A DNA stretch of 64,000 bases. It comes from Candidatus Kaiserbacteria bacterium (lineage in GTDB: Bacteria; Patescibacteriota; Minisyncoccia; Phycocordibacterales; UBA2100). Location of the stretch: positions 32,428-96,427 of the forward strand of contig JACROD010000023.1 of NCBI GenBank assembly GCA_016214605.1, written 5' to 3'. The notes beneath the pieces are model-generated. The model worked only from the letters and a program-made list of their open reading frames with translations, was not told the DNA's origin and ran no database searches. Positions 1,798-44,200 of this stretch are shown here, piece after piece; position 1 is the first letter of the stretch; each line of letters begins with the position of its first letter. The position numbers and the translations under genes were made by a program.

Positions 1798-1907
1798 AAA
1801 TGAGTGGATTGATTACGTAACAATAATAATCTAAATAAGAGAACTAAGCGAATACTTATACTTTAGTGGACTCTAGTAATTTCTAAAAATAATTATGTTT
1901 TGATTAT

Positions 1908-1945
1908 GCTCCTGTAATTCTCGCAATTGCGAGAATTACAGGAGC
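1908..1945. repeat. 38-bp perfect palindrome gctcctgtaattctcgcaa|ttgcgagaattacaggagc (copy 1 of the CTCCTGTAATT family)
   Basis: The self-complementarity was read directly. It lies between the dnaK start and the stop of the 1970..2554 gene. Confidence 0.8.
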
Positions 1946-1969
1946 ATCTCATTACAGTATATTCATTGT

Positions 1970-4650: not shown

Positions 4651-4711
4651 TGCACAGATATGCTTTGACAAATCTATTTTGTACGTTATTATTGTGCCGG
4701 ACCACAAAGGC

Positions 4712-5104
4712 ATGGGAGAAGCCCACATGGACGACCTGATGTTTCGCTGCCGAGTTTACGGATATTTGTCCGGCGAAAACAACAAAAATTCGATGGAGCC
4801 GATGACGGTGGATGGTATACAAAAGGAGATCCAGAAGGACTGGGACACGGCCGGAAAGGCACCCCCATCTCCGTCGATCTTCTCCGAGCACTTTTCTTTT
4901 TTGCGACCCGATACTTCAAAGATCGGTTTGCCAGAGCCTGACGCGAAAAGGATCAAAAAAGCTCTTGAGACGCTCAAAGAAGAAAAGATGGTCGTTCATC
5001 CTATATTAGGGATGAACGAAAAAGGCGAGCCGGTCTATGATGAAAATCTCTGGATCAGGATCTATAGGGAGCCTGTACAGGAAACCGAACAGGAAGCAGC
5101 CTAG
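4712..5104 (+). CDS. Hypothetical protein
   Basis: This is the ATG-initiated portion of ORF 4361..5104 (MGEAHMDDLMFRCRVYGY...). No motif was recognised. Confidence 0.3.
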   Translation: MGEAHMDDLMFRCRVYGYLSGENNKNSMEPMTVDGIQKEIQKDWDTAGKAPPSPSIFSEHFSFLRPDTSKIGLPEPDAKRIKKALETLKEEKMVVHPILGMNEKGEPVYDENLWIRIYREPVQETEQEAA

Positions 5105-5632: not shown

Positions 5633-5751
5633 AGGGATAGTGAATAGGGTTTAGCCACTAGCGACTAGTGATAAGGTTCCCCGATTGTATTTTATTTATA
5701 ATGTAATTCATAGGCGTTTTTTGATTTTTACTAATGGCTATACCCTAGTGG

Positions 5752-6118: not shown

Positions 6119-6475
6119 TTATTTTACAAATTCGATACGTGCGGATTCGGTGTGCTGCTTGCCAATCTGGCCCATGCGGACGATACGGGTATAACCACCT
6201 TGGCGGTCAGCATACCGCACTGCAAGCGTTTCGTGAAGCTTCTTGACGGCATCCGGGGCGCCTCCAAGGCGGCTGGATACAGTGCGCTGTGAGGCGACGG
6301 TGTTCTTCTTGGCCTGTGTCACCAATCGCTCCACGAAGGGGCGCAGCTCCTTGGCCTTGGCGATCGTGGTCACGATCCCCTCTTCAAGGACGAGTGAGCG
6401 GGCAAGGCCGCGCATAAGGCCGTTGCGCACGTGCTTCACGCGGCCAAATGTTCGTTTACGGTGAAAGTGACGCAT
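6119..6475 (-). CDS. rplQ: 50S ribosomal protein L17
   Basis: MRHFHRKRTFGRVKHVRNGLMRGLARSLVLEEGIVTTIAKAKELRPFVERLVTQAKK... This is L17 and sits downstream of rpoA as in the alpha operon. Confidence 0.9.
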   Translation of the reverse strand: MRHFHRKRTFGRVKHVRNGLMRGLARSLVLEEGIVTTIAKAKELRPFVERLVTQAKKNTVASQRTVSSRLGGAPDAVKKLHETLAVRYADRQGGYTRIVRMGQIGKQHTESARIEFVK

Positions 6476-6483
6476 AAATTTAG

Positions 6484-6567
6484 TTGACAGTTGACAGTTG
6501 ACAGTTGACAGAAAAACCGCGAACGACGTTGGTCGCCACTGTAAACTGTAAACTGTAAACTGTAAAC
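6484..6567. repeat. 84-nt composite element: (TTGACAG)x4, a 26-nt spacer, (ACTGTAA)x4 (copy A)
   Basis: The tandem heptamers were read directly. The two blocks are near-complementary (6/7 per unit), so they could form a long imperfect hairpin. It sits in the rpoA-rplQ intergenic gap. Confidence 0.85.
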
Positions 6568-6581
6568 TTGTTCATAATTAA

Positions 6582-7553
6582 TTACTGTATACGCAGGGTA
6601 AGGCCAAGGTTGGATAGAGCCCTTTTAATGTCTTGCAAGCCCTTCTGACCCATGCCCTCGATCGCGAGAAGATCATCTTCGCGCTTGCGCACGAGGCCGC
6701 CGACCGTACGGATCGATGCGTTGTCGAGCGCCGCTTCGACGCGCTGAGGGAGATTGAGCTCGGTGATGCGGGTCTTCAGGACCTCGGCATCCATCGGGAT
6801 GGATTTGTCTTCGTTCTTCGTGGCGTTTTCTGCAGCCATGACAGGCGCCTCAACAACTTCTTCCTCCTTGAATCCAATGACCGCCTTGAGCTGATGGATC
6901 ATGGTCTCGATTGAAGTCTCGAGGGCCTCGCGCGGAGAGATGGTGCCGTCGGTCTCAATGATCATGCGGAGGCGGTTGAAATCGGTGCGATCGCCGACGC
7001 GCATGTTTTCTACTTCGTAATTGACGCGGCGAATAGGGCTGAAGATCGCATCGAGTGCGATGGTGCCGATGTCCACACGCTCTTTCTGGTGGATTTCCTT
7101 GGGGATATAGCCGAGACCGCGTTCTGCGCGGATCTCGATCTCGAGATTGGTCTTGGATGTGATACTCGCTATGGGAGTCTCCGGATTGAGGATCTCTACC
7201 TGGCCAGGAAGCTTCAAATCGGCGGCAGTGACATCCTTCGGACCTTTGACCGAGAGATGGATGGTCTGCGGTTCATCGGTGAGAAGACGGAAGCGGATCT
7301 TGCGAAGATTGAGCAAGATAGTGACCACGTCTTCTTTGACGCCTTCGATCGCGGAGAATTCGTGGGCTACACCAGGGATCTTGACGTGTGTGACCGCAGC
7401 GCCCGGAAGAGAAGAAAGAATGATGCGGCGAAGACTGTTGCCCAAGGTAAAGCCGTATCCCGGGTAAAGACCGTCGATTTCATAGATACCGCTGCGCTCG
7501 GATTCGCTTACGATACGTGGCTTTCCAGGAAGTGCGATGTGATAGTCAGACAT
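6582..7553 (-). CDS. rpoA: DNA-directed RNA polymerase alpha subunit
   Basis: 323 aa with NSLRRIILSSLPGAAVTHVKIPGVAHEFSAIEGVKEDV... (alpha NTD) and a C-terminal ...VGGLVRKREDDLLAIEGMGQKGLQDIKRAL (alpha CTD HhH). Confidence 0.9.
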   Translation of the reverse strand: MSDYHIALPGKPRIVSESERSGIYEIDGLYPGYGFTLGNSLRRIILSSLPGAAVTHVKIPGVAHEFSAIEGVKEDVVTILLNLRKIRFRLLTDEPQTIHLSVKGPKDVTAADLKLPGQVEILNPETPIASITSKTNLEIEIRAERGLGYIPKEIHQKERVDIGTIALDAIFSPIRRVNYEVENMRVGDRTDFNRLRMIIETDGTISPREALETSIETMIHQLKAVIGFKEEEVVEAPVMAAENATKNEDKSIPMDAEVLKTRITELNLPQRVEAALDNASIRTVGGLVRKREDDLLAIEGMGQKGLQDIKRALSNLGLTLRIQ

Positions 7554-7629
7554 AAATGACGTTTTTGGCCGCTAAAATAATAAATTTCGATAATAAAAAT
7601 TTGAACACCAAAAGTTGGACTATTATACC

Positions 7630-8250
7630 CTATCTACTGTAAAACTCAAACACTGTTGCATAATCAAGTCCGGTCTCGGCGGGGCTGTAGGTGGGCTCAG
7701 TTTGGACCTCGACGCGCAGGGCGGAAAGGTCGACGGCGAGCCATGCTGGGATTCCGCGGACCTGCTCTTCCTTGGCCTCGGCGAGTCCGGCAAAGAGCGG
7801 GCTGATGCGGCTCCCTTCGCGCACAGCGAGAACATCGCCCTTGCGGACGCGATATGAAGGGACGGTGACACGGGTGCCGTTTACCGTGATGTGGCCATGG
7901 CTCACGACTTGGCGTGCAGCGCGGCGAGTAGCAGCGAGACCAGCGCGATACACGGCGCTGTCGAGGCGTGACTCGAGCTCTATGTGAAGCGATTGCGACG
8001 GATCGGCCTGTGTGAAGGCCTTCTCGGCATAATTAGAGAGTTGGCGCTCGGAAAGGCCGTATGTATAGCGTACGCGCTGCTTTTCGATCAGCTGCTTGCC
8101 GTAGTCTGATCCACCACCGCGTCCACCGCGGGTCTTTTTGCTGGCCTTTGAGCGAGCCTCAGAAAGCGCAAACTTCTGGGTCTGGGTCTTTTCGAAGACG
8201 CCAGCACCGAGACGCTTTGCTACTTTGTATTTTGATTTGACCTGCAACAT
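7630..8250 (-). CDS. rpsD: 30S ribosomal protein S4
   Basis: The ATG at 8248-8250 gives MLQVKSKYKVAKRLG... and ...SERQLSNYAEKAFTQ..., RLDSAVYRAGLAATRRAARQVVSHGHITVNGTRVTVPSYRVRKGDV (the S4 domain). The listed 296-aa ORF over-extends upstream into rpsK. Confidence 0.9.
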   Translation of the reverse strand: MLQVKSKYKVAKRLGAGVFEKTQTQKFALSEARSKASKKTRGGRGGGSDYGKQLIEKQRVRYTYGLSERQLSNYAEKAFTQADPSQSLHIELESRLDSAVYRAGLAATRRAARQVVSHGHITVNGTRVTVPSYRVRKGDVLAVREGSRISPLFAGLAEAKEEQVRGIPAWLAVDLSALRVEVQTEPTYSPAETGLDYATVFEFYSR

Positions 8251-8278
8251 AAAAGAAAATAAATAGATGATGAGAGGA

Positions 8279-8713
8279 TTATACGCGACGTGCCTTGCGC
8301 TTGCGCGGGCCATTGTGCGGGACCGGTGTGTCGTCGGCGATGCGAGACACTTCGATTCCCTTTCCTGCAAAAGCGCGAAGGGCTGACTCGCGGCCTGATC
8401 CGACGCCGCGGATGACCACATCCACCTCCTTGATGCCGATAATATTGGCCTTGTCGCCCACAATCTCCCCGACCTTGGCGGCGGCAAAAGGAGTGCCCTT
8501 CTTGGCGCCGGAGAAGCCAAGGGAGCCAGATGACGACCATGCGACGGCGTTGCCGTTCTTGTCCGAGAGAAGGACTTTTGTATTATTAAAAGTCGCCTCG
8601 ATGTGGAGGGTACCCGCGACGATGTTTTTCTTGGCTACACGTGCCAAAGAGCGCGACTTGAGTCCCGCGTCTACGCCGCCGCCTGATTTTCGTATGATTC
8701 GTTTTTTGCCCAT
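8279..8713 (-). CDS. rpsK: 30S ribosomal protein S11
   Basis: ...GTLHIEATFNNTKVLLSDKNGNAVAWSSSGSLGFSGAKKGTPFAAAKVGE... Confidence 0.9.
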   Translation of the reverse strand: MGKKRIIRKSGGGVDAGLKSRSLARVAKKNIVAGTLHIEATFNNTKVLLSDKNGNAVAWSSSGSLGFSGAKKGTPFAAAKVGEIVGDKANIIGIKEVDVVIRGVGSGRESALRAFAGKGIEVSRIADDTPVPHNGPRKRKARRV

Positions 8714-8726
8714 GGTATTTTATTAG

Positions 8727-8810
8727 TTGACAGTTGACAGTTGACAGTTGACAGAAAAAGCATTGAGCGCGTCGAGGCCCACTGTAAACTGTAAACTGTT
8801 GACTGTAAAC
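8727..8810. repeat. Copy B of the 84-nt heptamer element: (TTGACAG)x4, a 26-nt spacer, ACTGTAA ACTGTAA ACTGTTG ACTGTAA
   Basis: Same architecture and flanks as copy A (...cttgttcataa then the TAA stop). It sits in the rpsM-rpsK intergenic gap. Confidence 0.85.
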
Positions 8811-8821
8811 TTGTTCATAAA

Positions 8822-9205
8822 TTATGTTTTCTCCAGCTTACGACGGCCGGATGTCATGGTCTTGCGGACGTTGCCGCGGACGGTGCGAGAATTGGTCTTG
8901 GTGCGTTGGCCGCGAGCGGGCAAACGGCGCAAGTGGCGGATGCCGCGGTGAGCTTTGATGTCGCGCAGGCGTCGGATATTGGCTGCAATTTCACGCTTGA
9001 GCTCGCCTTCTACCGGGCGCTTCTCGATAGCATCGCGCAAGGCTGCTTCTTGGGAATCGGTAAGATCCTTTGGTTTGGAGCCTGGATCAATACCAAGATC
9101 GATAAGAGTAGACTGCGCAAGGGGGCGTCCTACGCCATAGACCGCCGTGAGGCCAATCTCAAGGCGTTTATTGTCGGGGATGGTGATTCCTGAAATTCTC
9201 AACAT
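8822..9205 (-). CDS. rpsM: 30S ribosomal protein S13
   Basis: MLRISGITIPDNKRLEIGLTAVYGVGRPLAQ...IKAHRGIRHLRRLPARGQRTKTNSRT. Confidence 0.9.
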   Translation of the reverse strand: MLRISGITIPDNKRLEIGLTAVYGVGRPLAQSTLIDLGIDPGSKPKDLTDSQEAALRDAIEKRPVEGELKREIAANIRRLRDIKAHRGIRHLRRLPARGQRTKTNSRTVRGNVRKTMTSGRRKLEKT

Positions 9206-21058: not shown

Positions 21059-21096
21059 CCTCCTGTAATTTCACCAATTGGTGAAATTACAGGAGT
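21059..21096. repeat. 36-bp perfect palindrome cctcctgtaatttcaccaa|ttggtgaaattacaggag (copy 3 of the CTCCTGTAATT family)
   Basis: It has the same outer half-sites as copies 1 and 2, with compensatory changes in the centre that preserve the palindrome. Confidence 0.8.
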
Positions 21097-31837: not shown

Positions 31838-33814
31838 ATGTTCGGCAAACTCACACTCGATGCATTTCCGCAAAATCCGATCGTCATGTCGGCGTTAATC
31901 TTCATGATCGTGATCGGTGTCGCCATAGCGGGTGCCTTGTTCTATTTCAAGCGTTGGCGATGGTTCTGGGATGAATGGCTCACCTCGCTCGACGCCAAGC
32001 GTATCGGCGTGATGTATATCGCCGTCGGTTTCGTCATGCTGCTGCGCGGTGCCATAGACGCCGCGATGATGCGCGGGCAGCAGGCGATATCGGTCGGCGA
32101 TTCGTATGGTTATCTCACCCCCGACCACTTCGATCAGGTTTTCACCGCGCACGGCGTGATCATGATCTTCTTCGTCGCCATGCCGTTGATGTTTGGTCTC
32201 TTCAATCTCGTGGTGCCGCTTCAGATCGGCGCGCGCGATGTGGCATTTCCCTTCCTCAATTCAGTCAGCTTCTGGCTTTTTGCCGCCGGAGCGATACTCA
32301 TCAATATCTCGCTCGTCTACGGCGAATTCGCCAAGATCGGCTGGCTCGGCTACCCTCCGCTCTCTGAGCTCCAATACAGTCCCGGGGTCGGTGTCGATTA
32401 TTATATATGGCTGCTGCAGATCGCAGGCTTAGGCAGCCTCTTTGGCGCGATCAATTTTTTCGTGACGATCATCAAGATGCGCGCGCCAGGGATGACCTTG
32501 ATGCGCATGCCGATGTTTGAATGGACAACGCTCGCGAGTGTGGTGCTTATGATCGTTATATTCCCCATACTCACCGCGACCTTGGCGATGCTCTCCCTCG
32601 ATCGCTTGCTCGGGATGCATTTCTTTACTTCCGACTCCGGCGGCAACGCGATGATGTACGTCAATCTTATTTGGGCGTGGGGGCATCCGGAAGTATACGT
32701 GCTGATCTTGCCAGCCTTCGGCGCATTCTCGGAGATCGTACCGACCTTTGCGCGCAAGCCACTCTTTGGATATGCATCAATGGTCGCTGCATCAATCGTC
32801 ATTTGTTTTTTCTCGTTCATCGTATGGCTCCACCACTTCTTCACGATGGGTGCGGGAGCAAACGTAAACGCATTCTTTGGTATCGCGACGATGGTCATCG
32901 CCATCCCGACCGGTGTCAAAGTCTTCAACTGGCTCGCCACGATGTATCGCGGGCGCATCACTTTTACTTCGCCGATGTATTGGTTCCTCGGTTTTGTCGC
33001 AACCTTCACCCTCGGTGGCATGACCGGTGTGATGCTCGCAGTGCCGGGGATTGACTTCCAGGTCCACAACAGCCTCTTCTTGGTCGCGCACTTCCATAAT
33101 ATGGTGATCGGCGGTGTCGTGTTTGGTTATCTCGCGGCACTTTCTTTCTGGTTCCCCAAGATATTTGGTTTCCGGCTCAACGAAAAGTGGGGCATACGCG
33201 CCTTTTGGTGCTGGATCGTTGGATTCTTCGTGGCATTTATGCCGCTCTACGTACTCGGCTTCATGGGTGCGACGCGCCGCCTTGATCACTACGACGCTTC
33301 GACGGGTTGGCAGCCGCTTTTTATCGTGGCGGGCATCGGCGTCGCGATCATTGCGCTCGGTATCGTGTGTCAGGCGATACAGCTGATCGTGAGTATCAAG
33401 GAACGCAAACAAAATGCAGACACGACCGGCGATGCTTGGAATGATGGGCGCACGCTCGAATGGTCCACCTCCTCGCCGGCACCATTCTATAACTATGCCG
33501 TCATTCCGACCGTGCACGGACGCGATGCCTTTTGGGCGATGAAGCAGTCCGGCAACATTGGGCAAGCCAGGCTTGCCCAAGAGTACACAGACATTGAACT
33601 GCCGCGCAATACTCCTATGGGAGTGTATATCGGCGCATTCGCGCTCGTATTCGGATTCTCTCTCGTGTGGCACATCTGGTGGCTCGCCCTCATCGGAGCC
33701 CTGGGGATCGTCGCGTGCATTATCGCGCGCTCGTTTGATGAGCACACCGAATACATCCTCCCGGCCGCAGAGGTCGCTCGCATGGAAGCCGCTCGCGGCG
33801 CACAAACGATATGA
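31838..33814 (+). CDS. cyoB: Quinol oxidase subunit I (heme-copper oxidase catalytic subunit)
   Basis: 658 aa with ...[17 protein letters not shown]..., ...HHFFTMG... and [15 protein letters not shown], the classic HCO subunit I signatures. Confidence 0.9.
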
Positions 33815-35138: not shown

Positions 35139-35354
35139 ATGGCGAAAATTCCTCGCGGCAGAGAGATGGTGCGAAAACTGTTGCGAATCGGTTTCGTATT
35201 GAATCGTCAGCATGGAAGCCATTGCGTAATGAAAAATGCAACGGGAGAGACTATTGTAGTGCCCGTGCATGCCGGCAGAGAATTAAAGATTGGCCTCTTT
35301 CGAAGTATTTTCTCGCAAATCGGCGTGTCCGAAGAAGAATTCTGGGAGATATGA
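35139..35354 (+). CDS. hicA: HicA-family toxin (mRNA interferase)
   Basis: MVRKLLRIGFVLNRQHGSHCVMKNATGETIVVPVHAGRELKIGLFRSIFSQIG is the HicA dsRBD-like motif, including the catalytic-region GSH. Confidence 0.65.
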   Translation: MAKIPRGREMVRKLLRIGFVLNRQHGSHCVMKNATGETIVVPVHAGRELKIGLFRSIFSQIGVSEEEFWEI

Positions 35355-36211
35355 TCAAGCGATACATCTCGCTCACCAAGCCCGGGATCATCATGGGCAA
35401 TGCGATCACGGCCTCGGGAGGATTTTTCCTCGCTTCGCGAGGGGCTTTTGATCCGGTGCTTTATCTCGCGATGCTCGCCGGGCTCTCACTCATCATCGCC
35501 TCTGGCTGTGTGATCAACAATTACTTCGATCGCGACATCGACGGCCTCATGGAACGCACCAAAAACCGCGCGCTCGTAAGTGGTGCAATGGTGCCCATTG
35601 CACCATGGAAGGCCATTTTTTTTGCGGCAGCACTCGGGGTCTTGGGGGTATGGATACTCTATCGATATACGAATCTCCTCACACTCGAGGTCGCGCTCTT
35701 TGGCGCTTTCGTATATATCGTGCTCTATACGCTCTGGTCTAAGCGCCGATCGACCAAAAGCACCTTCATAGGAAGCCTTTCGGGCGCGGTGCCACCGGTC
35801 ATCGGCTACTGTGCCGTGACCAATACGATCGATGCTGCGGCGATCCTCCTCTTTCTCATCCTTGTGCTCTGGCAAATGCCGCATTTCTTCGCGATCGCGC
35901 TGTATCGCATCGAGGATTACACGGCCGCCGCGATCCCGGTCTTGCCGGTCAAGAAAGGGATCTTGGCAACCAAGATCCAGATGATCCTCTATATCAACGC
36001 TTTTATCGTCGCGACACTCGCGTTGACCGCACTGGACTACACGGGATATTTCTACGCGCTTGTCATGGCGGTACTCGGAATCGTGTGGCTCGTCCTCGCG
36101 ATCATGGGATTCAAGGCGCCGGACACCAAAAAATGGGCACGGAGGATGTTTATCCTCTCACTGGTGGTCATTGTGACGTTTCCTGTCATGCTCGCAATTG
36201 ACGTACGGTAA
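35351..36211 (+). CDS. cyoE: Protoheme IX farnesyltransferase (heme O synthase)
   Basis: The ATG at 35351 overlaps the hicA stop (ATGA). The translation MIKRYISLTKPGIIMGNAITASGGFFLA...NNYFDRDIDGLMERTKNRAL... is the UbiA-family CyoE/CtaB. ORF-track frame 35126..36211 is an upstream over-extension. Confidence 0.85.
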   Translation: MIKRYISLTKPGIIMGNAITASGGFFLASRGAFDPVLYLAMLAGLSLIIASGCVINNYFDRDIDGLMERTKNRALVSGAMVPIAPWKAIFFAAALGVLGVWILYRYTNLLTLEVALFGAFVYIVLYTLWSKRRSTKSTFIGSLSGAVPPVIGYCAVTNTIDAAAILLFLILVLWQMPHFFAIALYRIEDYTAAAIPVLPVKKGILATKIQMILYINAFIVATLALTALDYTGYFYALVMAVLGIVWLVLAIMGFKAPDTKKWARRMFILSLVVIVTFPVMLAIDVR

Positions 36212-36212
36212 A

Positions 36213-39028
36213 TACTACAACAGTAGAAATTCCCTATAACGATTTGGCAACCGCTGTTGGAACGCCTTTATTACATCTACAACAGTAGAAATTCCCTATA
36301 ACGATTTGGCACGTCGGGCTTTTGGCATACGTTTAATCTACAACAGTAGAAATTCCCTATAACGATTTGGCGTACTTCGGGCACAGCCAACACCGGATCT
36401 ACAACAGTAGAAATTCCCTATAACGATTTGGCTTTTGTGACCTGATCGCTAGTAACTCATCTACAACAGTAGAAATTCCCTATAACGATTTGGCCCTACT
36501 CGCTCAACATCACACACGGCATCTACAACAGTAGAAATTCCCTATAACGATTTGGCGCAAAGCAATGGCATTGTGGACATTATCTACAACAGTAGAAATT
36601 CCCTATAACGATTTGGCCTGACATCAGGTTGGGTTTGGGGTTACATCTACAACAGTAGAAATTCCCTATAACGATTTGGCCGAATACATGGGTGGGGTGA
36701 ATCGAGAATCTACAACAGTAGAAATTCCCTATAACGATTTGGCGAATCCGACGTATACGATCGGCGTATTATCTACAACAGTAGAAATTCCCTATAACGA
36801 TTTGGCAAAACAATTTTGCCATGCAGAATAGATCTACAACAGTAGAAATTCCCTATAACGATTTGGCGGTGGAGGCAATGATTAGCGGGTTCTATCTACA
36901 ACAGTAGAAATTCCCTATAACGATTTGGCGTCATGCACAACCCACATCTCTTTGATCTACAACAGTAGAAATTCCCTATAACGATTTGGCGAATTATCAG
37001 TACGATGAGGTAGCAATCTACAACAGTAGAAATTCCCTATAACGATTTGGCGCGCTCGCCTTCGATAACAATTATATCTACAACAGTAGAAATTCCCTAT
37101 AACGATTTGGCCGTGAAACACCCCGAGCGTCGTGTATATCTACAACAGTAGAAATTCCCTATAACGATTTGGCGATAACGGGCGTATACTTGGAGTACCA
37201 TCTACAACAGTAGAAATTCCCTATAACGATTTGGCGAAAGAAGCCGCGAACAAAACAAAATATCTACAACAGTAGAAATTCCCTATAACGATTTGGCCCG
37301 CAGGGGTAATAAACACGTCTTTATCTACAACAGTAGAAATTCCCTATAACGATTTGGCGTCCGGAGCACCAGACCTTCTCTCCATCTACAACAGTAGAAA
37401 TTCCCTATAACGATTTGGCAGTGCCCGGAGCGGAGGTTTATGAGATCTACAACAGTAGAAATTCCCTATAACGATTTGGCACGTGTGCACGTTGCTACTA
37501 CTATCAAATCTACAACAGTAGAAATTCCCTATAACGATTTGGCATGGTGGCGGGGGTAAACTCGTTATAATCTACAACAGTAGAAATTCCCTATAACGAT
37601 TTGGCGGTTCTCGAAGTCGTTGAACCATATATCTACAACAGTAGAAATTCCCTATAACGATTTGGCGCCAACGACGCAACGAAAGCCGCCTAATCTACAA
37701 CAGTAGAAATTCCCTATAACGATTTGGCGTGATTTCAACATCACCCAGGAGGACATCTACAACAGTAGAAATTCCCTATAACGATTTGGCAAAAGCCGAA
37801 GAAACGGCGTTTCAAACATCTACAACAGTAGAAATTCCCTATAACGATTTGGCGAATCCAGCGAAGGAGTAATAAAAAAATCTACAACAGTAGAAATTCC
37901 CTATAACGATTTGGCGTGAGCGTGGTATGTGTGAGGGCCAAATCTACAACAGTAGAAATTCCCTATAACGATTTGGCAGTGAACGTGCGCACCTCCCAGT
38001 CCTATCTACAACAGTAGAAATTCCCTATAACGATTTGGCCCCGAATTGGTAGCAAAATATAATATATCTACAACAGTAGAAATTCCCTATAACGATTTGG
38101 CCAATCAATCTTGATCCGCAGATTATTTATCTACAACAGTAGAAATTCCCTATAACGATTTGGCATCACAGCTTAATATGCAACCTACAATCTACAACAG
38201 TAGAAATTCCCTATAACGATTTGGCAGGTGTACGCACGCGAGGAGGCACAAGATCTACAACAGTAGAAATTCCCTATAACGATTTGGCACGGGTCGTGAG
38301 GGACGAGGATACCTATCTACAACAGTAGAAATTCCCTATAACGATTTGGCACCGATATTCTATAACGATTAGTGAAATCTACAACAGTAGAAATTCCCTA
38401 TAACGATTTGGCCAACGAAAGCGCGACGAAGCAGCGCGATCTACAACAGTAGAAATTCCCTATAACGATTTGGCACCCCGAAATCGTCGCGCAATATCAG
38501 ATCTACAACAGTAGAAATTCCCTATAACGATTTGGCTCGATCTCGATATTGAGATGGTAGCATCTACAACAGTAGAAATTCCCTATAACGATTTGGCTTT
38601 TTGTGAATGCTGATTATTTTCAATCTACAACAGTAGAAATTCCCTATAACGATTTGGCTATTGCATTCTCATCAAGTGCCTCCAATCTACAACAGTAGAA
38701 ATTCCCTATAACGATTTGGCTTAAAGGCTCTGATATTCAGGGCATATCTACAACAGTAGAAATTCCCTATAACGATTTGGCAGGGTCAAGACCACGTATC
38801 TCTCTTTATCTACAACAGTAGAAATTCCCTATAACGATTTGGCTCGTGCTAAGAGGAAAAATAAAATATATCTACAACAGTAGAAATTCCCTATAACGAT
38901 TTGGCCGATCGTGTAGCGTGATCGGTTTTTGATCTACAACAGTAGAAATTCCCTATAACGATTTGGCCAGCGCTAAATAGACATCTATATGGATCTACAA
39001 CAGTAGAAATTCCCTATAACGATTTGGC
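36213..39028 (-). CRISPR. CRISPR array with 46 copies of a 36-nt repeat (minus-strand sense GCCAAATCGTTATAGGGAATTTCTACTGTTGTAGAT) and 45 spacers of ~25-27 nt. It is transcribed on the minus strand with the leader at the high-coordinate end
   Basis: Counted directly. Period is ~62 nt. The repeat's 3' 19 nt (AATTTCTACTGTTGTAGAT) forms the short UCUAC-UGUU-GUAGA hairpin typical of type V-A repeats. The leader-distal repeat at 36213 is degenerate (atactacaac) and starts 2 nt after the cyoE stop. Confidence 0.95.
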
Positions 39029-39510: not shown

Positions 39511-40467
39511 CTATATGTTAAATACGGGAAATTCCACTTCACCTTCGTTCATGACGTACCTATAATACCCATGTACGTATTTATACAAATCCTCCTTATG
39601 ACACATAATTGTTTCCATAAAGATCTCGGCATATTTACGACTCGCCTCGTATGAGAGTGTGTATCGTCCCTTCACCACTGTAAAATCCTTCGGGTCTATC
39701 TGCTTTAGATTCCACGCTTTGAGGAGTTGCTTGTCGATGATGCAGCGGAATGGCTCCATAATGTCACAGGCAAGCGACTTGCGCTGGAAGAAAAGCTTGT
39801 GATAAAAACCCTTATAGGTATCGAATCCATGTAGGCGGAGCAATGAATCGGTGCAATTGAATAGCATCGAATATCCGATGTCTAGCATAATATTGTGTAT
39901 GTCCCCCTTGGTGCGTGGGGCTCGTCGCACCCAACCTGTTTCGCCGTAATATTCTTCAAAAAACCTCCGCGAAGCATTACCCTCAAGTCCACGCAGAGTC
40001 TCATCACTACCCGCGCCCTGTATGGCGAGCAGTGTAGTATCCAGATCAGCTACCATACCATCTTTTTTCTTTCGTTCTTTGAGAAGTTTTGCTTGATTGG
40101 AAACTTTGTTTGCCATGAGCAATCGTGCCATGCTCATTTCCACATCCTCATTCCACGCATACTGGCGACTACGCAAGAGATAGTGCCCCTCTGCCACCGC
40201 ACCAAAGCTGGCATATGTCTCCAGATTGTCCTTGAGAAAGAAGAATGACACGCCGTGTTTGACCCCGTCACGCATGAGGCCGCTCGTGATGGTAATGTCC
40301 CCTATCACAAACGCGCCAAAGACCTTGTGACACGATGCCCTATTGATCACCTTGTCGTCCTTCATAAAGACCAAATTGTCATTAAAGAATTTGATCTTGT
40401 TGAAAACGCCACGCTCGGCCCGTATGAAGAGAAGTTGTTTTTCTTTGAAGTCAGGTAGTGAAATCAT
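39511..40467 (-). CDS. cas1: CRISPR-associated integrase Cas1
   Basis: 318 aa with ...GFDTYKGFYHKLFFQRKSLACDIMEPFRCIIDKQL... This corresponds to the Cas1 GxH...R.SL..DLMEPFRP.VD catalytic region. Confidence 0.9.
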   Translation of the reverse strand: MISLPDFKEKQLLFIRAERGVFNKIKFFNDNLVFMKDDKVINRASCHKVFGAFVIGDITITSGLMRDGVKHGVSFFFLKDNLETYASFGAVAEGHYLLRSRQYAWNEDVEMSMARLLMANKVSNQAKLLKERKKKDGMVADLDTTLLAIQGAGSDETLRGLEGNASRRFFEEYYGETGWVRRAPRTKGDIHNIMLDIGYSMLFNCTDSLLRLHGFDTYKGFYHKLFFQRKSLACDIMEPFRCIIDKQLLKAWNLKQIDPKDFTVVKGRYTLSYEASRKYAEIFMETIMCHKEDLYKYVHGYYRYVMNEGEVEFPVFNI

Positions 40468-40474
40468 ATGCGTA

Positions 40475-41014
40475 TTACCATGCTAGTGCTCCATAAATGC
40501 TTTCTTCGCAGCGTATACAGGAGTGTCCGTGGACGGCAGACATGTCGAAAGCGCGCATGTCTGCGAGCACTTGCTCAAAACGTGTTTTTTCAGCTTCGCC
40601 AGGGATGGGTATTTCATAGCGCTTGTTATCTTCGAGTGAGTGGAGAAATAGCTTGTCTATCTCGTATCCCATTTCGATCATGCAGTAGTATTGGGCGTAG
40701 AGCTGGTATCGGTAGCCGTCTCGGATCTCCTTGATGCGCGTTTTGCGTTCGATGAGGTGCTTTTTGTCGGCGTCGTATAGGTCAATCCGACCTGCCACCG
40801 CAAGCCTTTCGGAGTAGACTTCCATTCCCCCGATAAACCGACGTGCAGTGGAGTAGGTGTCGTCGTCGAGATGTGCATGGTTGGCCCGGCCGACGATCTG
40901 GGGCGTTTGATGGTAGGTCTTGGTGTTGAATCCTTCATAGAGATTATGGAGATAGATGGAGACCGGACAATACAAAAAGTCGTTGATATTGGAGATTTTG
41001 ATGTACGGTTCCAT
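40475..41014 (-). CDS. cas4: CRISPR-associated Cas4 (PD-(D/E)xK exonuclease with Fe-S cysteines)
   Basis: N-terminal FLYCPVSIYLHNLY, a core D...E.K (RIDLYDADKKHLIERKTR), and a C-terminal ...HGHSCIRCEESIY cysteine cluster. Confidence 0.8.
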   Translation of the reverse strand: MEPYIKISNINDFLYCPVSIYLHNLYEGFNTKTYHQTPQIVGRANHAHLDDDTYSTARRFIGGMEVYSERLAVAGRIDLYDADKKHLIERKTRIKEIRDGYRYQLYAQYYCMIEMGYEIDKLFLHSLEDNKRYEIPIPGEAEKTRFEQVLADMRAFDMSAVHGHSCIRCEESIYGALAW

Positions 41015-41203
41015 GGCTTGATAACAAAATAGCGACCCGCTAGGATCGCCACCTTGTTATCATGTGGTTGATCTTACGTCAAGTGTGTTGTATTTATGAT
41101 TAGGCCCTTTGTATCTCTTTTGTGGTTTCCTACTGTATGGACGATGCTGATTGTAAGCCACGATAAGCTATCCCAGTCTCTTGTAGAGACTCTAAAGGCC
41201 TAA
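41015..41203 (-). promoter_or_regulatory. Structured 189-bp spacer between the cas12a stop and the cas4 start. It has nested inverted repeats (a possible terminator or attenuator) plus a TTGACG box
   Basis: Outer arms gattaggccctttg (41097-41110) and ctaaaggcctaatc (41191-41204). Inner hairpin agtctcttgtagagact (41174-41190) lies 14 nt after the cas12a TGA. A second IR gataacaa...ttgttatc is at 41021-41062. Confidence 0.4.
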
Positions 41204-44200
41204 TCATAGTTGTATTCCGTGTTTAGTTGCCCATTCGTCCCACTGTTCTTTACTGATGTATAAATCCGGTTTTTCTGGATTATCATTTATACGGCCAATG
41301 GTGATAATACCCTTTCGAGCAATGTTGTAGGCGCCGAGAGAGTCGCCATTCGCCAGATTGATGTCACATGGATTTGGCTTTGGCGCATTGAGGGTTGTGA
41401 AGAATGGAGCAACGGGTGATGCAATGAAGTCGGTCTTATCAGACGAATTTCGGATATCGAGAATGATATTGAAGATATAGATGAATGCCTGGAAGAAGTT
41501 CCTTTCTCGCCCGTCAATCATCTTATAGCTGCTGAGTTCTCCATTTTTCATCTTTTCCTCGATCTTACTTTTTAGGTCGGTCGCTATTTTGTCCTCAAAA
41601 TTCCACGCCTCAAACAGAGACTTGAACATATCGTTCGGATTTACATTCCGAGCATTCCAAACACCTTGTTCGTTTCTCTCGCGACGAATACGTGGCACAT
41701 CTGCATATACCGTCCATAATTTCGATATCGTTTTAGTTTTCTCCTTCTTATCTACAAGTCTAACTGGATCGTAAGTGATAAAGTAGCTTTGCCTTTCTTC
41801 GTTCCAACCAATAGCATCGAAAGATTTAATTGCTTTTTCTAACTTCTCTTTGGTAGCTGAGTTACTGACATACACATTCTTACGGAATCCGGTGACAGGA
41901 TCTGTCGTCGACGTGTATGCTGCTTCAGTGTAGAAGACGATACCGGTCTGATTACCCATGTCTTTGAACGACTCAAACGGCGCGGCGAGTTGATAACCGT
42001 TTAGGACACCGCCTATTTCAAGCTCCGGCCTGTCTTTGAACACCATGTGACCGAGCTTGTCTACGAGTTGCTTTTCGAGCTGTTGGTATACACTCTTTTC
42101 AATACCACTACGAATTTGTTTGAAACGCATGTTGAGATTTTCGAGCACGATAATCGCGTTGTGTTCTATGGCGAGGTCGCAAATCTTTTTGACAGCATGC
42201 GATACATATCCACGCTTGAGGTCTTTGATCTGGCGCACCGGTAACCATGCTTGGCGATTGGCAGTACGTTCTTTCTCCTTGCCATCAAGAAGCTTGTGAT
42301 AGTCGGTGCCGCTAATCTCATTTAGACTCCCTTCGTCGACAATCACACCTTTTTGATTGATCACTGAATAGTATGCGAGATGCTTTTCCCCGCGATCAAT
42401 GCCGATGATGCAAAAGTCTTTTGCGCGCTTCGCGATAAGCTCGGCATTGAGTATCTTATTGAATTGATATTGGCTACGCATTGCATCCGTCCCCGCGTTG
42501 ATCTTGATTGGCACATGGAAGAATACCTTGTCTTCGGTAAAACGTTTGTATTTGGTGATGTCTCGCGGGAAGTTGCGTTTTTCTTTTTCCGGCTCCACCG
42601 ATGCCTCGCGGTAAAAAATCTCCGCATTTCCGGCGAGTTGTACCACAGTCGGTGTCTGTGCGAGATTTGCTTCGGAAAAGAGTTGTGAGAAGTAGAGTGA
42701 ATGCACATTTTTAGTACCCGTTGATCCGCTCGCAAAGTCTTTGCTTTTAATTTTGAACAAATACATCTCTCCTTTTGCAACATGCTCATCAATGTAGTCC
42801 GCATCTACTGGAACAAACTTTATCTTGTAATTTTGCTGTGCAATGTGGTCATTAAATTCACCGATACCCACATATTCCTCTGGTTTCTTCCATGTGAGTC
42901 CAAACGTCTCTTGGTAACCACCTTTGGCGAGACAGTTTTGATAGTACGCAATTAGTCTGGCAGTTTTATTCGCATCAAACTGATTTTTCCACGCACTCTG
43001 ATCTTCCTTTTTTGACTCTTGGAACTTGGCATACTCATCTTTAATCGCCTGCACTTCTGGTGTCCATCCAAACGTTTTTTTGTTGGTTTCCGCGAAAGCC
43101 ACCTTGGGAATCATGCGCTTTGGATCTGGAAACAGTTTGTATTCCATTTTTGAATATCCATTATCACCTGCTCGATACGCTTCGGGGTGTTTCTTCTCCT
43201 CCAGTATGTCACTAAACTGTTTACGCATTATCGCAAGATAATAAGCGCCGTCTTTTCGCAGAATAATGCCCAGCTTCTCTTGCTCTTTGTTTTTGTCCCA
43301 CCCGGAAAGAAGGGTGCCACATTCGAAGTTGAGTTTGACTTTGTTTTCATCGGATGGTTTTTGAGTGAGAAAATTGCGCGCTACATTGTAGAGCGGAAAG
43401 AAAATGTCTTTCGCATATTCTTCGCGATAGGCATCGTAGAATTTTGGGTCGTAACCCTCTTCTGGCTCAACCCAATCTCTCCTGTTTTCCGTCGCAAAGT
43501 ATTTGATCATACGATGCGCATCGCGACAGCTATTAAGGTACGCGCTGATACGATTGATCTGAATTGTCCCCTCATCTTCTTTTTCCTTACGCCTCTGCGA
43601 AAGTGCGCCCGTTGTCCAAAAGGAATCTTTTTTGAGGTCCGCCAAATCAACTGCACTTTCGGCAACACGCGCATCAAGTTCACTCAAGAGTATTGTAATG
43701 AGGTTTGTAAAGTGCCCGACACTCTCGACAAATGCTGCATGTTTCAATATCTCTGACCTGAACAACTCACTCGGTTTCTTCCCTTTATTTATTTCGTTCA
43801 CATCGAGAGCATTCTGTACGTGTTGAAGGGACACAAAATCAGGTAACTCCCCACCTCCACCCTTCGCCGTGCCAACCGCATCGAGAAGTGCGCCCTTGAG
43901 TACACTCCAGTTTGTGAAGTACTTACTCGAAATCGTATTGATCGCACCACTGGAGAAATATATTTTTGACCACTCATACCCACTTTTTTCTGGCATAGTA
44001 AGTGCGTCACGAATGAGCGCCAACATCTTCGTGCAGTAGGCGACATTTTCTTCAGAAAATACCTTTAGTTTCTCCCAGAGTTGGGCATCACCTTTTATCA
44101 CGAGCATCTCAAACACGTCTTTTTCACTCAAAATTTGATTGTGTAATTTTGCCAAAAAACTGATTTTGTTTCCAGTTTTCTGACGGTATTCGTTTACTTT

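What the first reader, a model, noticed from the sequence alone, without database searches (positions are those of the whole stretch)
8714..8821. Second copy of the same heptamer element in the rpsM-rpsK gap
The same architecture recurs 2.2 kb away. It has TTGACAG x4, a spacer of identical length (26 nt) but different sequence, then ACTGTAA x4 with one unit changed to ACTGTTG. The same CTTGTTCATAA(W)TTA tail abuts the upstream gene's stop.

Conservation of block sequence and spacer length, together with divergence of the spacer sequence, argues for selection on the repeat blocks and their geometry. That points to a functional regulatory or structural RNA or DNA element of the ribosomal-protein operon rather than a chance repeat.
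Basis: seen in the sequence. Interest (0 to 1): 0.6.

Follow-up and report, generated by a model that had tools for sequence, protein, structure and literature searches.

The report
Mobile heptamer-repeat hairpin between ribosomal genes
The repeat is real, but it is not a ribosomal-operon regulator: it is one copy of an apparently undescribed family of about 100-base, hairpin-forming, translatable inserts that sit at gene junctions and in pilin gene leaders of Candidatus Kaiserbacteria.

Summary
All genes here are on the minus strand, in a Candidatus Kaiserbacteria (CPR) alpha operon.

On the mRNA strand each copy reads ATGAACAAG, then (TTTACAG)x4, a 26-nt spacer ending in T5, (CTGTCAA)x4, then CTAA. 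This folds into a long hairpin with one U.C mismatch per heptad (about -32 kcal/mol, z about -5). It is also an intact 31-codon ORF that starts 3-6 nt after the upstream stop and ends 4-9 nt before the next ATG.

It is not operon-specific. At least 12 related contigs have 1-16 nt junctions, or a 47-nt remnant, at these sites. The B site is filled only in one more distant relative (ORF intact, hairpin lost). The A site is filled only in another.

The same element lies at the pilT-pilC junction and, in frame, inside prepilin leaders of other Kaiserbacteria. There, other complementary heptamer pairs build the same architecture.

The genome is nearly Shine-Dalgarno-free. My best reading is a MITE-like junction cassette that is tolerated because its mini-ORF relays ribosomes between cistrons. 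That mechanism is inferred, not shown. No published description was found in the searches made here.

The parts
8714..8821 (-). Copy B: the whole rpsM-rpsK intercistronic insert (108 nt)
   Evidence: Relatives have 1-16 nt here, or a 47-nt remnant.
8723..8818 (-). Copy B mini-ORF, 31 codons plus TAA (MNKFTVNSLQFTVGLDALNAFSVNCQLSTVN*). Its ATG is 3 nt after the rpsM stop. Its stop is 9 nt before the rpsK ATG.
   Evidence: The ortholog in L145 keeps the same start, stop and length despite 17 of 96 substitutions.
8781..8808 (-). Copy B 5' arm on the mRNA: TTACAGT CAACAGT TTACAGT TTACAGT (the + strand ACTGTAA block)
8755..8780 (-). Copy B spacer or loop. It is GC-rich and ends in T5 on the mRNA strand.
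   Evidence: It contains a weak terminator-like motif.
8727..8754 (-). Copy B 3' arm on the mRNA: (CTGTCAA)x4 (the + strand TTGACAG block)
6476..6581 (-). Copy A: the whole rpoA-rplQ intercistronic insert (106 nt)
   Evidence: Relatives have 6-10 nt here.
6480..6575 (-). Copy A mini-ORF, 31 codons plus TAA (MNKFTVYSLQFTVATNVVRGFSVNCQLSTVN*). Its ATG is 6 nt after the rpoA stop. Its stop is 4 nt before the rplQ ATG.
   Evidence: The ortholog in L138 is 91/96 identical, including a TAA-to-TGA change.
6538..6565 (-). Copy A 5' arm on the mRNA: (TTACAGT)x4
6484..6511 (-). Copy A 3' arm on the mRNA: (CTGTCAA)x4
8822..9205 (-). rpsM (S13), the cistron upstream of copy B
   Evidence: Pfam
8279..8713 (-). 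rpsK (S11), the cistron downstream of copy B. It has no Shine-Dalgarno sequence.
   Evidence: Pfam
6582..7553 (-). rpoA, the cistron upstream of copy A
   Evidence: Pfam
6119..6475 (-). rplQ (L17), the cistron downstream of copy A. It has no Shine-Dalgarno sequence.
   Evidence: Pfam

Best explanation
Copy B, and copy A, are members of a dispersed family of about 100-nt cassettes in Candidatus Kaiserbacteria. Each cassette is built from two partly complementary arrays of four heptamers around a spacer of about 26 nt.

Shown:
- They are insertions relative to the tight ancestral gene junctions.
- Their distribution among relatives is patchy, and they decay.
- The same cassette occurs at other cistron junctions (pilT-pilC) and in frame inside prepilin leader-coding regions.
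- The mRNA strand folds into a long hairpin with one mismatch per heptad.
- The mRNA strand is almost free of stop codons in all three frames.
- The stand-alone copies carry an ATG next to the upstream stop and a stop next to the downstream ATG.

Inferred mechanism: the cassette is co-transcribed with the operon. In this nearly Shine-Dalgarno-free genome, internal cistrons depend on termination-reinitiation. A ribosome finishing rpsM (or rpoA) restarts on the cassette's ATG, melts the hairpin while translating the 31 codons, stops, and restarts on rpsK (or rplQ). The built-in mini-ORF is therefore what lets a selfish or neutral hairpin insert persist inside an essential operon. At most the hairpin tunes how much translation is passed on.

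How the cassette moves is unknown.
For: 1. Insertion and patchiness.
- Junctions in relatives are 1-16 nt at the B site and 6-10 nt at the A site.
- The window is nearer to element-free L121-L125 (86-91% nt identity) than to L138 (80-84%), which carries A.

2. Dispersal. A metagenome scan found the same arms upstream of pilC (L130/L136, L131, L135), inside prepilins (L129/L133, L152) and upstream of rplQ in L138.

3. Hairpin.
- Free energy is -31.5 kcal/mol for copy B and -33 kcal/mol for copy A, with z of -5.3 and -5.0.
- Other family members behave the same way.
- Other heptamer pairs give the same architecture with 1-2 mismatches per heptad: AAAACAG/CTGTTCT at pilT-pilC in L156, and GAGTATG/ACGCCAT, AGTATCA/GATACGC, AGCTTCA/GCTCGTA and TCAGGTT/AAACCTA in pilin leaders.
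- By my arithmetic, a random heptamer pair reaches 1 mismatch or fewer in some rotation with p of about 0.009.

4. ORF.
- It is 96 nt from ATG to stop in window A, window B, L138, L145, L136 and L131, even though the head, spacer and arm lengths differ (9+28+27+28+4, 11+28+25+28+4 and 11+28+23+21+13).
- L156 has 27 codons.
- Each stand-alone ORF ends between -4 and +9 nt of the next ATG.
- Upstream stops overlap the ATG as ATGA in L131, L156 and L133.
- L145 keeps the ORF after losing the hairpin (-13.6 kcal/mol, z 0.07).
- Sense frames carry 1/1/0 stops. Antisense frames carry 2-6.

5. Shine-Dalgarno-free context. Only 8 of 60 ORFs have an SD-like motif, and many have a -10 box 6-9 nt before the ATG.

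6. Precedent. Bacterial MITEs of 100-200 bp form long stem-loops and often carry ORFs fused in frame to genes, including signal peptides (PMC2229807).
Against: - No expression or translation data exist, so the relay is pure inference.
- No transposase, clear terminal inverted repeat or unambiguous target-site duplication was found. The only hints are TAA/TA on both flanks of A and B and a 7-nt CTATGAG direct repeat in L131.
- Only two copies occur in 64 kb. The rest of the genome could not be searched.
- In L136 another element separates pilT from the cassette's ATG.
- The second junction family in this window, the GCCACTAG type at 5633-5751, has no tight relay ORF.
- L132 and L134 copies lack the ORF.
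- Copy A is 95% identical between the window and L138 while flanking genes are 81-84% identical. This hints at a sequence-level function or recent transfer that the neutral-passenger view does not explain.
- Complementary arms could come from origin by inverted duplication rather than from selection.
Confidence: 0.5

Rival explanations
1. A cis-regulatory RNA of the ribosomal-protein operon, bound by S4 or another r-protein for autoregulation.
For: - Both copies in the window lie inside the alpha operon.
- The RNA is strongly structured.
- Copy A is better conserved between the window and L138 than its flanking genes.
Against: - It is absent from relatives whose S11 or L17 protein is identical to the window's, and from five other rpoA relatives (L144, L146-L149).
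- The same element occurs at pilus genes.
- There is no Rfam match.
- The B ortholog in L145 has lost the structure.
Confidence: 0.03
2. A portable internal promoter. (TTTACAG)x4 followed by T reads TTTACA-N17-TACAGT and would drive the downstream gene.
For: - The consensus scan picks this site in both copies, at 9 of 12 matches.
- The genome uses promoters placed very close to start codons.
Against: - Transcripts would start in the spacer and lose the ATG that prepilin genes need, because the arms hold no other start codon.
- The T at the last -10 position is not conserved: it is TACAGA in L129 and L136.
- Other heptamer subfamilies, such as AAAACAG and GTATGGA, do not make this motif.
Confidence: 0.06
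3. A phase-variation (contingency) switch. Slippage by one heptamer shifts the reading frame, turning the downstream or fused gene on or off. The copies in the ribosomal operon would be stray, non-functional members.
For: - The unit length is not a multiple of three.
- The arrays sit in the leader-coding part of surface pilin genes. My knowledge: Neisseria opa genes carry CTCTT repeats in a comparable position.
- The element is open in all three sense frames.
- The same G>T change in three successive units in L145 shows that units turn over together.
Against: - Unit numbers are the same (4+4) in independent assemblies from different samples: L152-L155, L156/L157, L130/L136 and L129/L133.
- The 96-nt length is conserved across lineages.
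- Four units is short for a hypermutable tract.
- A frame switch upstream of rpsK or rplQ would be harmful.
Confidence: 0.12
4. Binding arrays for a sequence-specific RNA- or DNA-binding protein that controls translation initiation, as proposed for TAACTGA repeats placed just upstream of start codons.
For: - The 3' arm (TCAACTG)n ends 4-9 nt before the start codon, in forward orientation. It shares the AACTG core with TAACTGA (PMC4679880).
- The arms are identical across lineages whose pilC proteins differ and whose spacers are unrelated.
Against: - At the same junctions, other lineages use quite different heptamers with the same geometry. This argues for shape rather than for a sequence read by one protein.
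- No candidate protein was identified.
Confidence: 0.1
5. A genuine small-protein gene encoding a functional 31-residue peptide.
For: - ORF length and position are conserved.
- In the B/L145 spacer, two of three changes are synonymous and the third is L to I (my count).
- A gene caller has called the L138 version (P0002).
Against: - The middle of the peptide is unrelated between A, B, L136 and L131.
- Family members are read in different frames.
- Over the whole B/L145 pair there are 6 synonymous and about 11 non-synonymous changes, which is close to neutral.
- The heptamer repeat dictates the peptide.
Confidence: 0.04
6. An mRNA processing or stability hairpin, like REP or Correia elements. 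It would act as a 3' exonuclease barrier or nuclease site and set different levels for the cistrons on either side.
For: - It is a long stable stem-loop inside a polycistronic mRNA.
- The periodic mismatch limits perfect duplex to 6 bp, a feature that could modulate double-strand nucleases (inference).
- Correia elements are RNase III targets (PMC2229807).
Against: - This does not explain the conserved ATG, stop and length, nor the survival of the ORF after hairpin loss in L145.
- It does not explain the in-frame use in prepilins.
- It is compatible with the best explanation rather than exclusive of it.
Confidence: 0.12

Closest known systems
Bacterial MITE-like small palindromic repeats that carry ORFs: Correia/NEMIS 107 bp, ERIC/IRU, Rickettsia RPE, Yersinia YPAL (review PMC2229807)
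   Same: - About 100 nt long.
- The transcript is a long imperfect stem-loop.
- Found in transcribed intergenic regions of operons.
- Presence or absence differs between relatives.
- The open reading frame can be fused in frame to genes and can form part of a signal peptide.
   Different: - The arms are tandem arrays of four heptamers rather than unique terminal inverted repeats.
- Several subfamilies share the geometry but use different complementary heptamers.
- A start codon and a stop codon are placed to bridge two cistrons.
- No clear TA duplication or partner transposase was found.
- The host is a CPR bacterium.
TAACTGA heptamer direct repeats of marine Beggiatoaceae, some cyanobacteria and Bacteroidetes (MacGregor 2015, PMC4679880)
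   Same: - Tandem heptamers with an AACTG core.
- Forward orientation, a few nt upstream of start codons that lack Shine-Dalgarno sequences.
- Includes sites internal to ribosomal-protein operons.
- Patchy distribution, suggesting transfer.
   Different: - TAACTGA arrays are single direct arrays with no predicted structure and with stops in all forward frames.
- Here two complementary arrays form a hairpin, and the forward strand is stop-free and carries an ORF.
Cyanobacterial STRR heptamer repeats (STRR1-3; my knowledge, Mazel et al. 1990) and the (TTGACAG)n arrays of Microcoleus, Richelia and Calothrix
   Same: - Tandem heptamers.
- Exactly (TTGACAG)n is abundant in filamentous cyanobacteria.
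- One unit of copy B is CAACAGT, which is the STRR3 unit.
   Different: - None of the 120 fetched loci has the ACTGTAA partner arm or the ATG head.
- The host phylum is different.
- Array length is variable there, against a fixed 4+4 here.
Simple-sequence-repeat contingency loci in leader-peptide coding regions, such as Neisseria opa CTCTT (my knowledge; reviews listed, not opened)
   Same: Non-triplet tandem repeats in the cleaved leader-coding part of surface-structure genes. This applies to the pilin copies in relatives.
   Different: - No length variation was seen between assemblies.
- A complementary second array is present.
- Copies also occur in an essential operon.
E. coli alpha-operon S4 translational operator (Rfam Alpha_RBS; my knowledge)
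   Same: The same operon, and a structured RNA.
   Different: - That operator lies at the rpsM start, is a pseudoknot, and is conserved within its clade.
- This element lies at internal junctions, is a simple hairpin, is missing from close relatives, and gives no Rfam hit.

Membership tests
Bacterial MITE-like small mobile repeat | Small size (about 100-200 bp), with a transcript that forms a long stem-loop | tested here: met
   The ATG-to-stop unit is 96 nt, in gaps of 106-108 nt. Free energy is -31.5 and -33 kcal/mol, z about -5.
Bacterial MITE-like small mobile repeat | Filled and empty orthologous sites among related genomes | tested here: met
   Empty junctions occur in L121-L125, L139-L144 and L147-L149. 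Filled sites are in the window, L138 (A) and L145 (B).
Bacterial MITE-like small mobile repeat | The same sequence at non-homologous loci (dispersal) | tested here: met
   It occurs at the rpoA-rplQ, rpsM-rpsK and pilT-pilC junctions and in prepilin leaders, across several Kaiserbacteria contigs.
Bacterial MITE-like small mobile repeat | Many copies within one genome | tested here: inconclusive
   There are 2 copies in this 64-kb window and 3 within 1.4 kb in L133. The rest of the source genome was not retrievable.
Bacterial MITE-like small mobile repeat | Terminal inverted repeats and a target-site duplication (often TA) | tested here: inconclusive
   The arms are inverted repeats but lie internal to an unpaired ATG head. 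TAA/TA flanks both ends of A and B, and a 7-nt CTATGAG direct repeat flanks the L131 copy. No consistent rule emerged.
Bacterial MITE-like small mobile repeat | A partner transposase or parent insertion sequence | not tested
   No transposase search was made. Nothing suggestive was seen next to any copy.
Ribosomal-protein autoregulatory leader (S4 / alpha operon type) | Conserved across relatives at the regulated cistron | tested here: not met
   It is absent from most relatives.
Ribosomal-protein autoregulatory leader (S4 / alpha operon type) | Match to a curated r-protein leader model | tested here: not met
   Rfam gave no hit at gathering score, and none at E<=10 in 6300-9000 apart from one chance lncRNA hit.
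TAACTGA-type start-proximal heptamer repeats | Tandem heptamers in forward orientation within a few nt upstream of a start codon | tested here: met
   The 3' arm ends 8-13 nt before the rplQ and rpsK start codons in the window. The cassette's stop lies between -4 and +9 nt of the next ATG across the family.
TAACTGA-type start-proximal heptamer repeats | The unit is TAACTGA, the array is unstructured, and stops occur in all forward frames | tested here: not met
   The unit is CTGTCAA (TCAACTG), which shares only the AACTG core. The array is paired with a complementary array. The forward frames are open.
Cyanobacterial STRR | Tandem heptamers of the STRR1-3 consensus in a heterocystous or filamentous cyanobacterium | tested here: not met
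   The host is Ca. Kaiserbacteria. The units differ except for one CAACAGT unit. Cyanobacterial (TTGACAG)n loci lack the partner arm.
Simple-sequence contingency (phase-variable) locus | Repeat number varies between closely related strains or within populations | tested here: not met
   Unit counts are identical in independent assemblies. Read-level variation is not testable with these tools.
Intrinsic terminator | A GC-rich stem followed directly by a U tract | tested here: not met
   The long hairpin is followed by CUAAAUUU or CUAAUAAAA. The only matches are weak 5-7 bp stems before the internal T5 run, in a scan that finds 10 such sites against 4.3 expected.

The most novel reading that the evidence does not exclude
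Kaiserbacteria, which are CPR bacteria, may possess a general and so far undescribed class of heptamer-array hairpin cassettes.

Features of the class:
- Two co-varying arrays of four heptamers.
- One mismatch per heptad.
- Open in all three frames.

These could act as programmable translational gates at cistron junctions and at the 5' ends of type IV pilus genes. Their sequence would renew itself through concerted unit turnover while the geometry is held. The gate could be set by register or unit number, or opened by upstream translation, to control pilus and other operon stoichiometry in organisms that lack Shine-Dalgarno-based initiation. The ribosomal-operon copies would then be working members rather than passengers.
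Probability: 0.15. Interest if true: 0.8.

Novelty: new variant of a known kind. Interest (0 to 1): 0.6.

Why it matters
If the reading is right, it shows how a selfish hairpin insert can live inside the most essential and tightly coupled operons of a reduced, Shine-Dalgarno-free genome: it carries its own start and stop codons and so hands ribosomes on.

It also reveals that pilin genes of Kaiserbacteria commonly begin with hairpin-forming heptamer arrays. The two arms stay complementary while their sequence changes. These pili are thought to mediate host attachment and DNA uptake in CPR episymbionts (my knowledge).

That gives a concrete handle on translation control in uncultivated CPR bacteria. 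It is also a natural set of covarying hairpins that could be tested in reporters.

For annotation, it warns that unusually long prepilin leaders and 31-residue ORFs in these genomes are products of repeat elements.

Tried and rejected
- **Genome-collection scan with (TTGACAG)x3.** It returned 120 or more loci, mostly filamentous cyanobacteria with STRR-like arrays. None had the partner arm or head.
It returned mainly spurious cyanobacterial repeat ORFs. The one true relative was P0002, the L138 copy.
- **Exact look-up of the window's RpoA.** It is not on record, so the source contig and the rest of the genome could not be examined.
- **Rfam.** Nothing at gathering or relaxed thresholds.
- **Viral contigs.** Not there.
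- **Promoter idea (TTTACA-N17-TACAGT).** Rejected as a general explanation, because prepilin genes need the upstream ATG and other subfamilies lack the motif.
- **Terminator idea.** There is no U tract after the long stem.
- **Stop-codon avoidance as the cause of the periodic mismatch.** A perfect complement of either arm would indeed create TAA or TGA. It explains TTTACAG/CTGTCAA but not AAAACAG/CTGTTCT or GTATGGA/CCATACG.
- **Pilus genes in the window.** A search for pilC or prepilin genes, to test for same-genome copies, found none.

Full report
**1. Observation**

- TTGACAG x4 at 8727-8754.
- A 26-nt spacer at 8755-8780.
- ACTGTAA, ACTGTAA, ACTGTTG, ACTGTAA at 8781-8808.
- ACTTGTTCATAAA, running up to the stop of the neighbouring gene.

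Copy A at 6476-6581 has the same layout.

The double heptamers occur 10 times each in the window, against 0.3 and 0.1 expected by shuffling, and only at these two places. TRF reports the arrays. The spacers match at 13 of 26 positions.

Pfam confirms the gene order on the minus strand: infA, rpmJ, rpsM, [B], rpsK, rpsD, rpoA, [A], rplQ, rplM.

NCBI names for proteins identical to the window's S11 and L17 place the organism in Candidatus Kaiserbacteria, in the CPR/Patescibacteria.

**2. Anatomy on the mRNA strand**

Both copies read as follows:
- ATGAACAAG.
- Four TTTACAG-type units. In copy B one unit is altered (UU to CA), which reads CAACAGT in the TTACAGT register.
- A GC-rich spacer ending in T5.
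- (CTGTCAA)x4.
- CTAA.

The two arms pair at six of seven positions, leaving a U.C mismatch in every heptad. The RNA folds at -31.5 kcal/mol (B) and -33 kcal/mol (A), with z of -5.3 and -5.0.

The same 96 nt form an ORF of 31 codons.
- In A, the ATG is 6 nt after the rpoA stop and the TAA is 4 nt before the rplQ ATG.
- In B, the distances are 3 nt and 9 nt.

Because 7 and 3 share no factor, a heptamer array encodes the same cyclic heptapeptide in every frame.

Across the 96 nt, the three sense frames hold only three stops or fewer. These are the terminal stop, the TGA inside ATGA, and none in the third frame. The antisense frames hold 2-6 stops each.

**3. Not a conserved feature of the operon**

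- Eight contigs encode an S11 identical to the window's and five encode an identical L17. Two contigs appear in both sets. They have a 6-nt rpoA-rplQ junction and a 47-nt rpsM-rpsK gap without the element.
- Further RpoA relatives at 85-90% amino-acid identity have junctions of 1-16 nt at the B site and 6-10 nt at the A site.
- Copy A recurs only in L138. There the 96-nt unit is 91/96 identical, including a TAA-to-TGA change, while the flanking genes are only 80-84% identical. The window is closer (86-91%) to the element-free contigs.
- Copy B recurs in L145 with the same gap length, ATG, TAA and 31 codons, and a similar spacer. But there are 17 substitutions and the arms have diverged: the right arm is CTTTCAA in three successive units. 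The hairpin is gone (-13.6 kcal/mol, z 0.07).
- The 47-nt gap of the closest relatives aligns with the 3' part of the element and looks like a remnant. L138 has a scrambled remnant at the B site.

So B is old, patchy and decaying. A is either constrained or recently acquired.

**4. The same element elsewhere**

One metagenome scan for the two arms with a 16-40 nt spacer returned ten loci.
- In L130/L136, L131 and L135 the element lies directly upstream of pilC (T2SSF). It follows pilT, which directly abuts it in L131. The arms are identical between these loci, but the spacers are unrelated apart from the T run.
- In L129/L133 and L152 it lies in frame inside prepilin genes. It supplies a leader of about 35 residues before the RGFTLIE cleavage motif. 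Pfam N_methyl matches at residues 34-54.
- L133 has three such genes in tandem.
- The stand-alone copies in L136 and L131 again measure exactly 96 nt from ATG to stop, although head, spacer and arm lengths differ. In L131 the stop overlaps the pilC ATG.

**5. The architecture is more general than the sequence**

- Other prepilin genes in L136, L133 and L156 begin with different heptamer arrays, each paired with a complementary array 20-45 nt downstream. The second array ends just before the cleavage motif.
- At the pilT-pilC junction of L156 the pair is (AAAACAG)x4 / (CTGTTCT)x4. It has an ATGA overlap with the pilT stop, a 27-codon ORF, a TAA 3 nt before the pilC ATG, and folds at -32.5 kcal/mol.
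- The same junction in L152 is a bare 6 nt.
- In each pair the arm consensus differs from the perfect complement at only 1-2 positions per heptad. For random heptamers, 1 mismatch or fewer in any rotation has a probability of about 0.009 (my arithmetic).
- Among 120 homologs of one minor pilin, mostly from Kaiserbacteria, leaders range from 1 to more than 80 residues. Roughly a third have 27-40-residue leaders made of two stretches with 7-residue periodicity, of many different sequences.

**6. Translation context**

- Only 8 of 60 ORFs in the window have a Shine-Dalgarno-like motif.
- Many ORFs have a TATAAT-like box 6-9 nt before the ATG, which suggests leaderless or near-leaderless mRNAs.
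- Internal cistrons such as rpsK and rplQ have no such signals. In relatives they sit within a few nt of the preceding stop.

**7. Interpretation**

Shown:
- The element is a dispersed, lineage-specific insert.
- It forms a hairpin.
- It is kept open for translation, and it is placed so that it bridges two cistrons.

Inferred:
- It is co-transcribed and translated.
- Its mini-ORF preserves termination-reinitiation coupling, which is why it is tolerated between essential genes.
- This also explains why the ORF outlives the hairpin in L145.
- The hairpin may modulate coupling or mRNA stability.

How it spreads is unknown. TAA/TA flanks both ends of A and B, and a CTATGAG direct repeat flanks the L131 copy. 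These are leads only.

**8. Rivals considered**

- **r-protein autoregulation.** Contradicted by the distribution among relatives.
- **Promoter.** The scan does find TTTACA-17-TACAGT. But prepilin genes need the upstream ATG, and other subfamilies lack the motif.
- **Phase variation.** It is attractive for pilins. But unit numbers are identical in independent assemblies, and the length is conserved.
- **Heptamer-binding regulator.** This is the proposal made for TAACTGA repeats (PMC4679880). Different heptamers at the same junction argue for shape over sequence.
- **Functional peptide.** The peptide is not conserved.
- **Processing or stability hairpin.** This is compatible with the main reading but does not explain the ORF.

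**9. Comparison with what is known**

- The nearest described kind is the bacterial MITE-like small palindromic repeat that carries ORFs and can be fused in frame to genes, even forming signal peptides (PMC2229807).
- The nearest described sequence motif is the start-proximal TAACTGA heptamer repeat, which also occurs inside ribosomal-protein operons of an SD-poor genome (PMC4679880).
- The element differs from both. Its arms are paired heptamer arrays with a periodic mismatch. Several heptamer subfamilies share one geometry. It has a built-in start and stop.
- Literature searches found no description of it in CPR bacteria.

**10. Verdict**

The operon-specific interpretation is not supported. 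The element is a new variant of a known kind, with an inferred but untested translational-relay mechanism. It opens onto a wider and unexplained phenomenon in Kaiserbacteria pilus loci.

Noticed in passing
window 36215-39028 and 39511-45079: A type V-A CRISPR-Cas locus. The array has about 45 repeats with a 62-nt period. Next to it lie cas1 (39511-40467, minus strand), a 179-residue ORF with no Pfam hit (40475-41014), and a 1291-residue Cas12a/Cpf1 with RuvC, REC1, NUC and PI domains (41204-45079, minus strand). This block has lower GC content (0.42-0.46) than the rest of the window (about 0.52).
   Followed up: partly
window 5633-5751 (rplM-rpsI gap): A third insert in the same operon, from a different family: a palindromic element of about 119 nt (..TAGCCACTAGGG..CTAGTGGCTAA..CACTATCCCT ATG) with its own internal ATG. 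Relatives have 4-29 nt at this junction. L138 carries three copies of this family at the rpsK-rpsD, infA-rpmJ and rpmJ-rpsM junctions.
   Followed up: partly
L145 1996-2185 and 3113-3294; L136 minus strand 4680-4823: A further junction element family of about 140-180 nt. It starts with ..TTGTTATGAGC and has arms AATCCAGCACCACTTTTGA / TCAAAAGTGGTGCTGGG. In L136 it sits between pilT and the heptamer cassette and is followed by a near-copy of the pilT 3' end.
   Followed up: no
window 1906-1947, 2579-2616, 21060-21095: Three copies of a near-perfect palindrome of 36-42 bp with no loop (..GCTCCTGTAATTCTCGCAA|TTGCGAGAATTACAGGAGC..). This looks like another repeat family or a protein-binding site.
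   Followed up: no
window, all ORF starts: Only 8 of 60 ORFs have a Shine-Dalgarno-like motif. Many have a TATAAT-like box 6-9 nt before the ATG, which implies widespread leaderless or near-leaderless mRNAs. A strong TTGACA-16-TATCAT promoter lies at 9634-9607 (minus strand), upstream of infA.
   Followed up: partly
window 31838-33814 and 35351-36211: A heme-copper oxidase subunit I (COX1, E 2.5e-146) and a UbiA prenyltransferase. To my knowledge CPR bacteria usually lack respiratory chains, so this is unexpected.
   Followed up: no
P0336, P0339 (Kaiserbacteria prepilin homologs): Leaders of 83-111 residues that contain two to four repeated pseudo-cleavage motifs (RGFTPTPI...) before the real RGFTLIET. 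This is a different kind of repeat expansion in the same gene.
   Followed up: no
L001-L120 (genome-contig hits): Exact (TTGACAG)n arrays are very common in Microcoleus, Richelia, Calothrix and other filamentous cyanobacteria, and occur sporadically in Bacteroidota. A Parabacteroides locus (L105) and a Saprospiraceae locus (L113) have perfect inverted TTGACAG/CTGTCAA arrays.
   Followed up: partly
L146 (2147-bp contig): This Logan contig ends exactly at the end of rpoA, where copy A would sit. An assembly break at a repeat could be hiding a filled A site.
   Followed up: no
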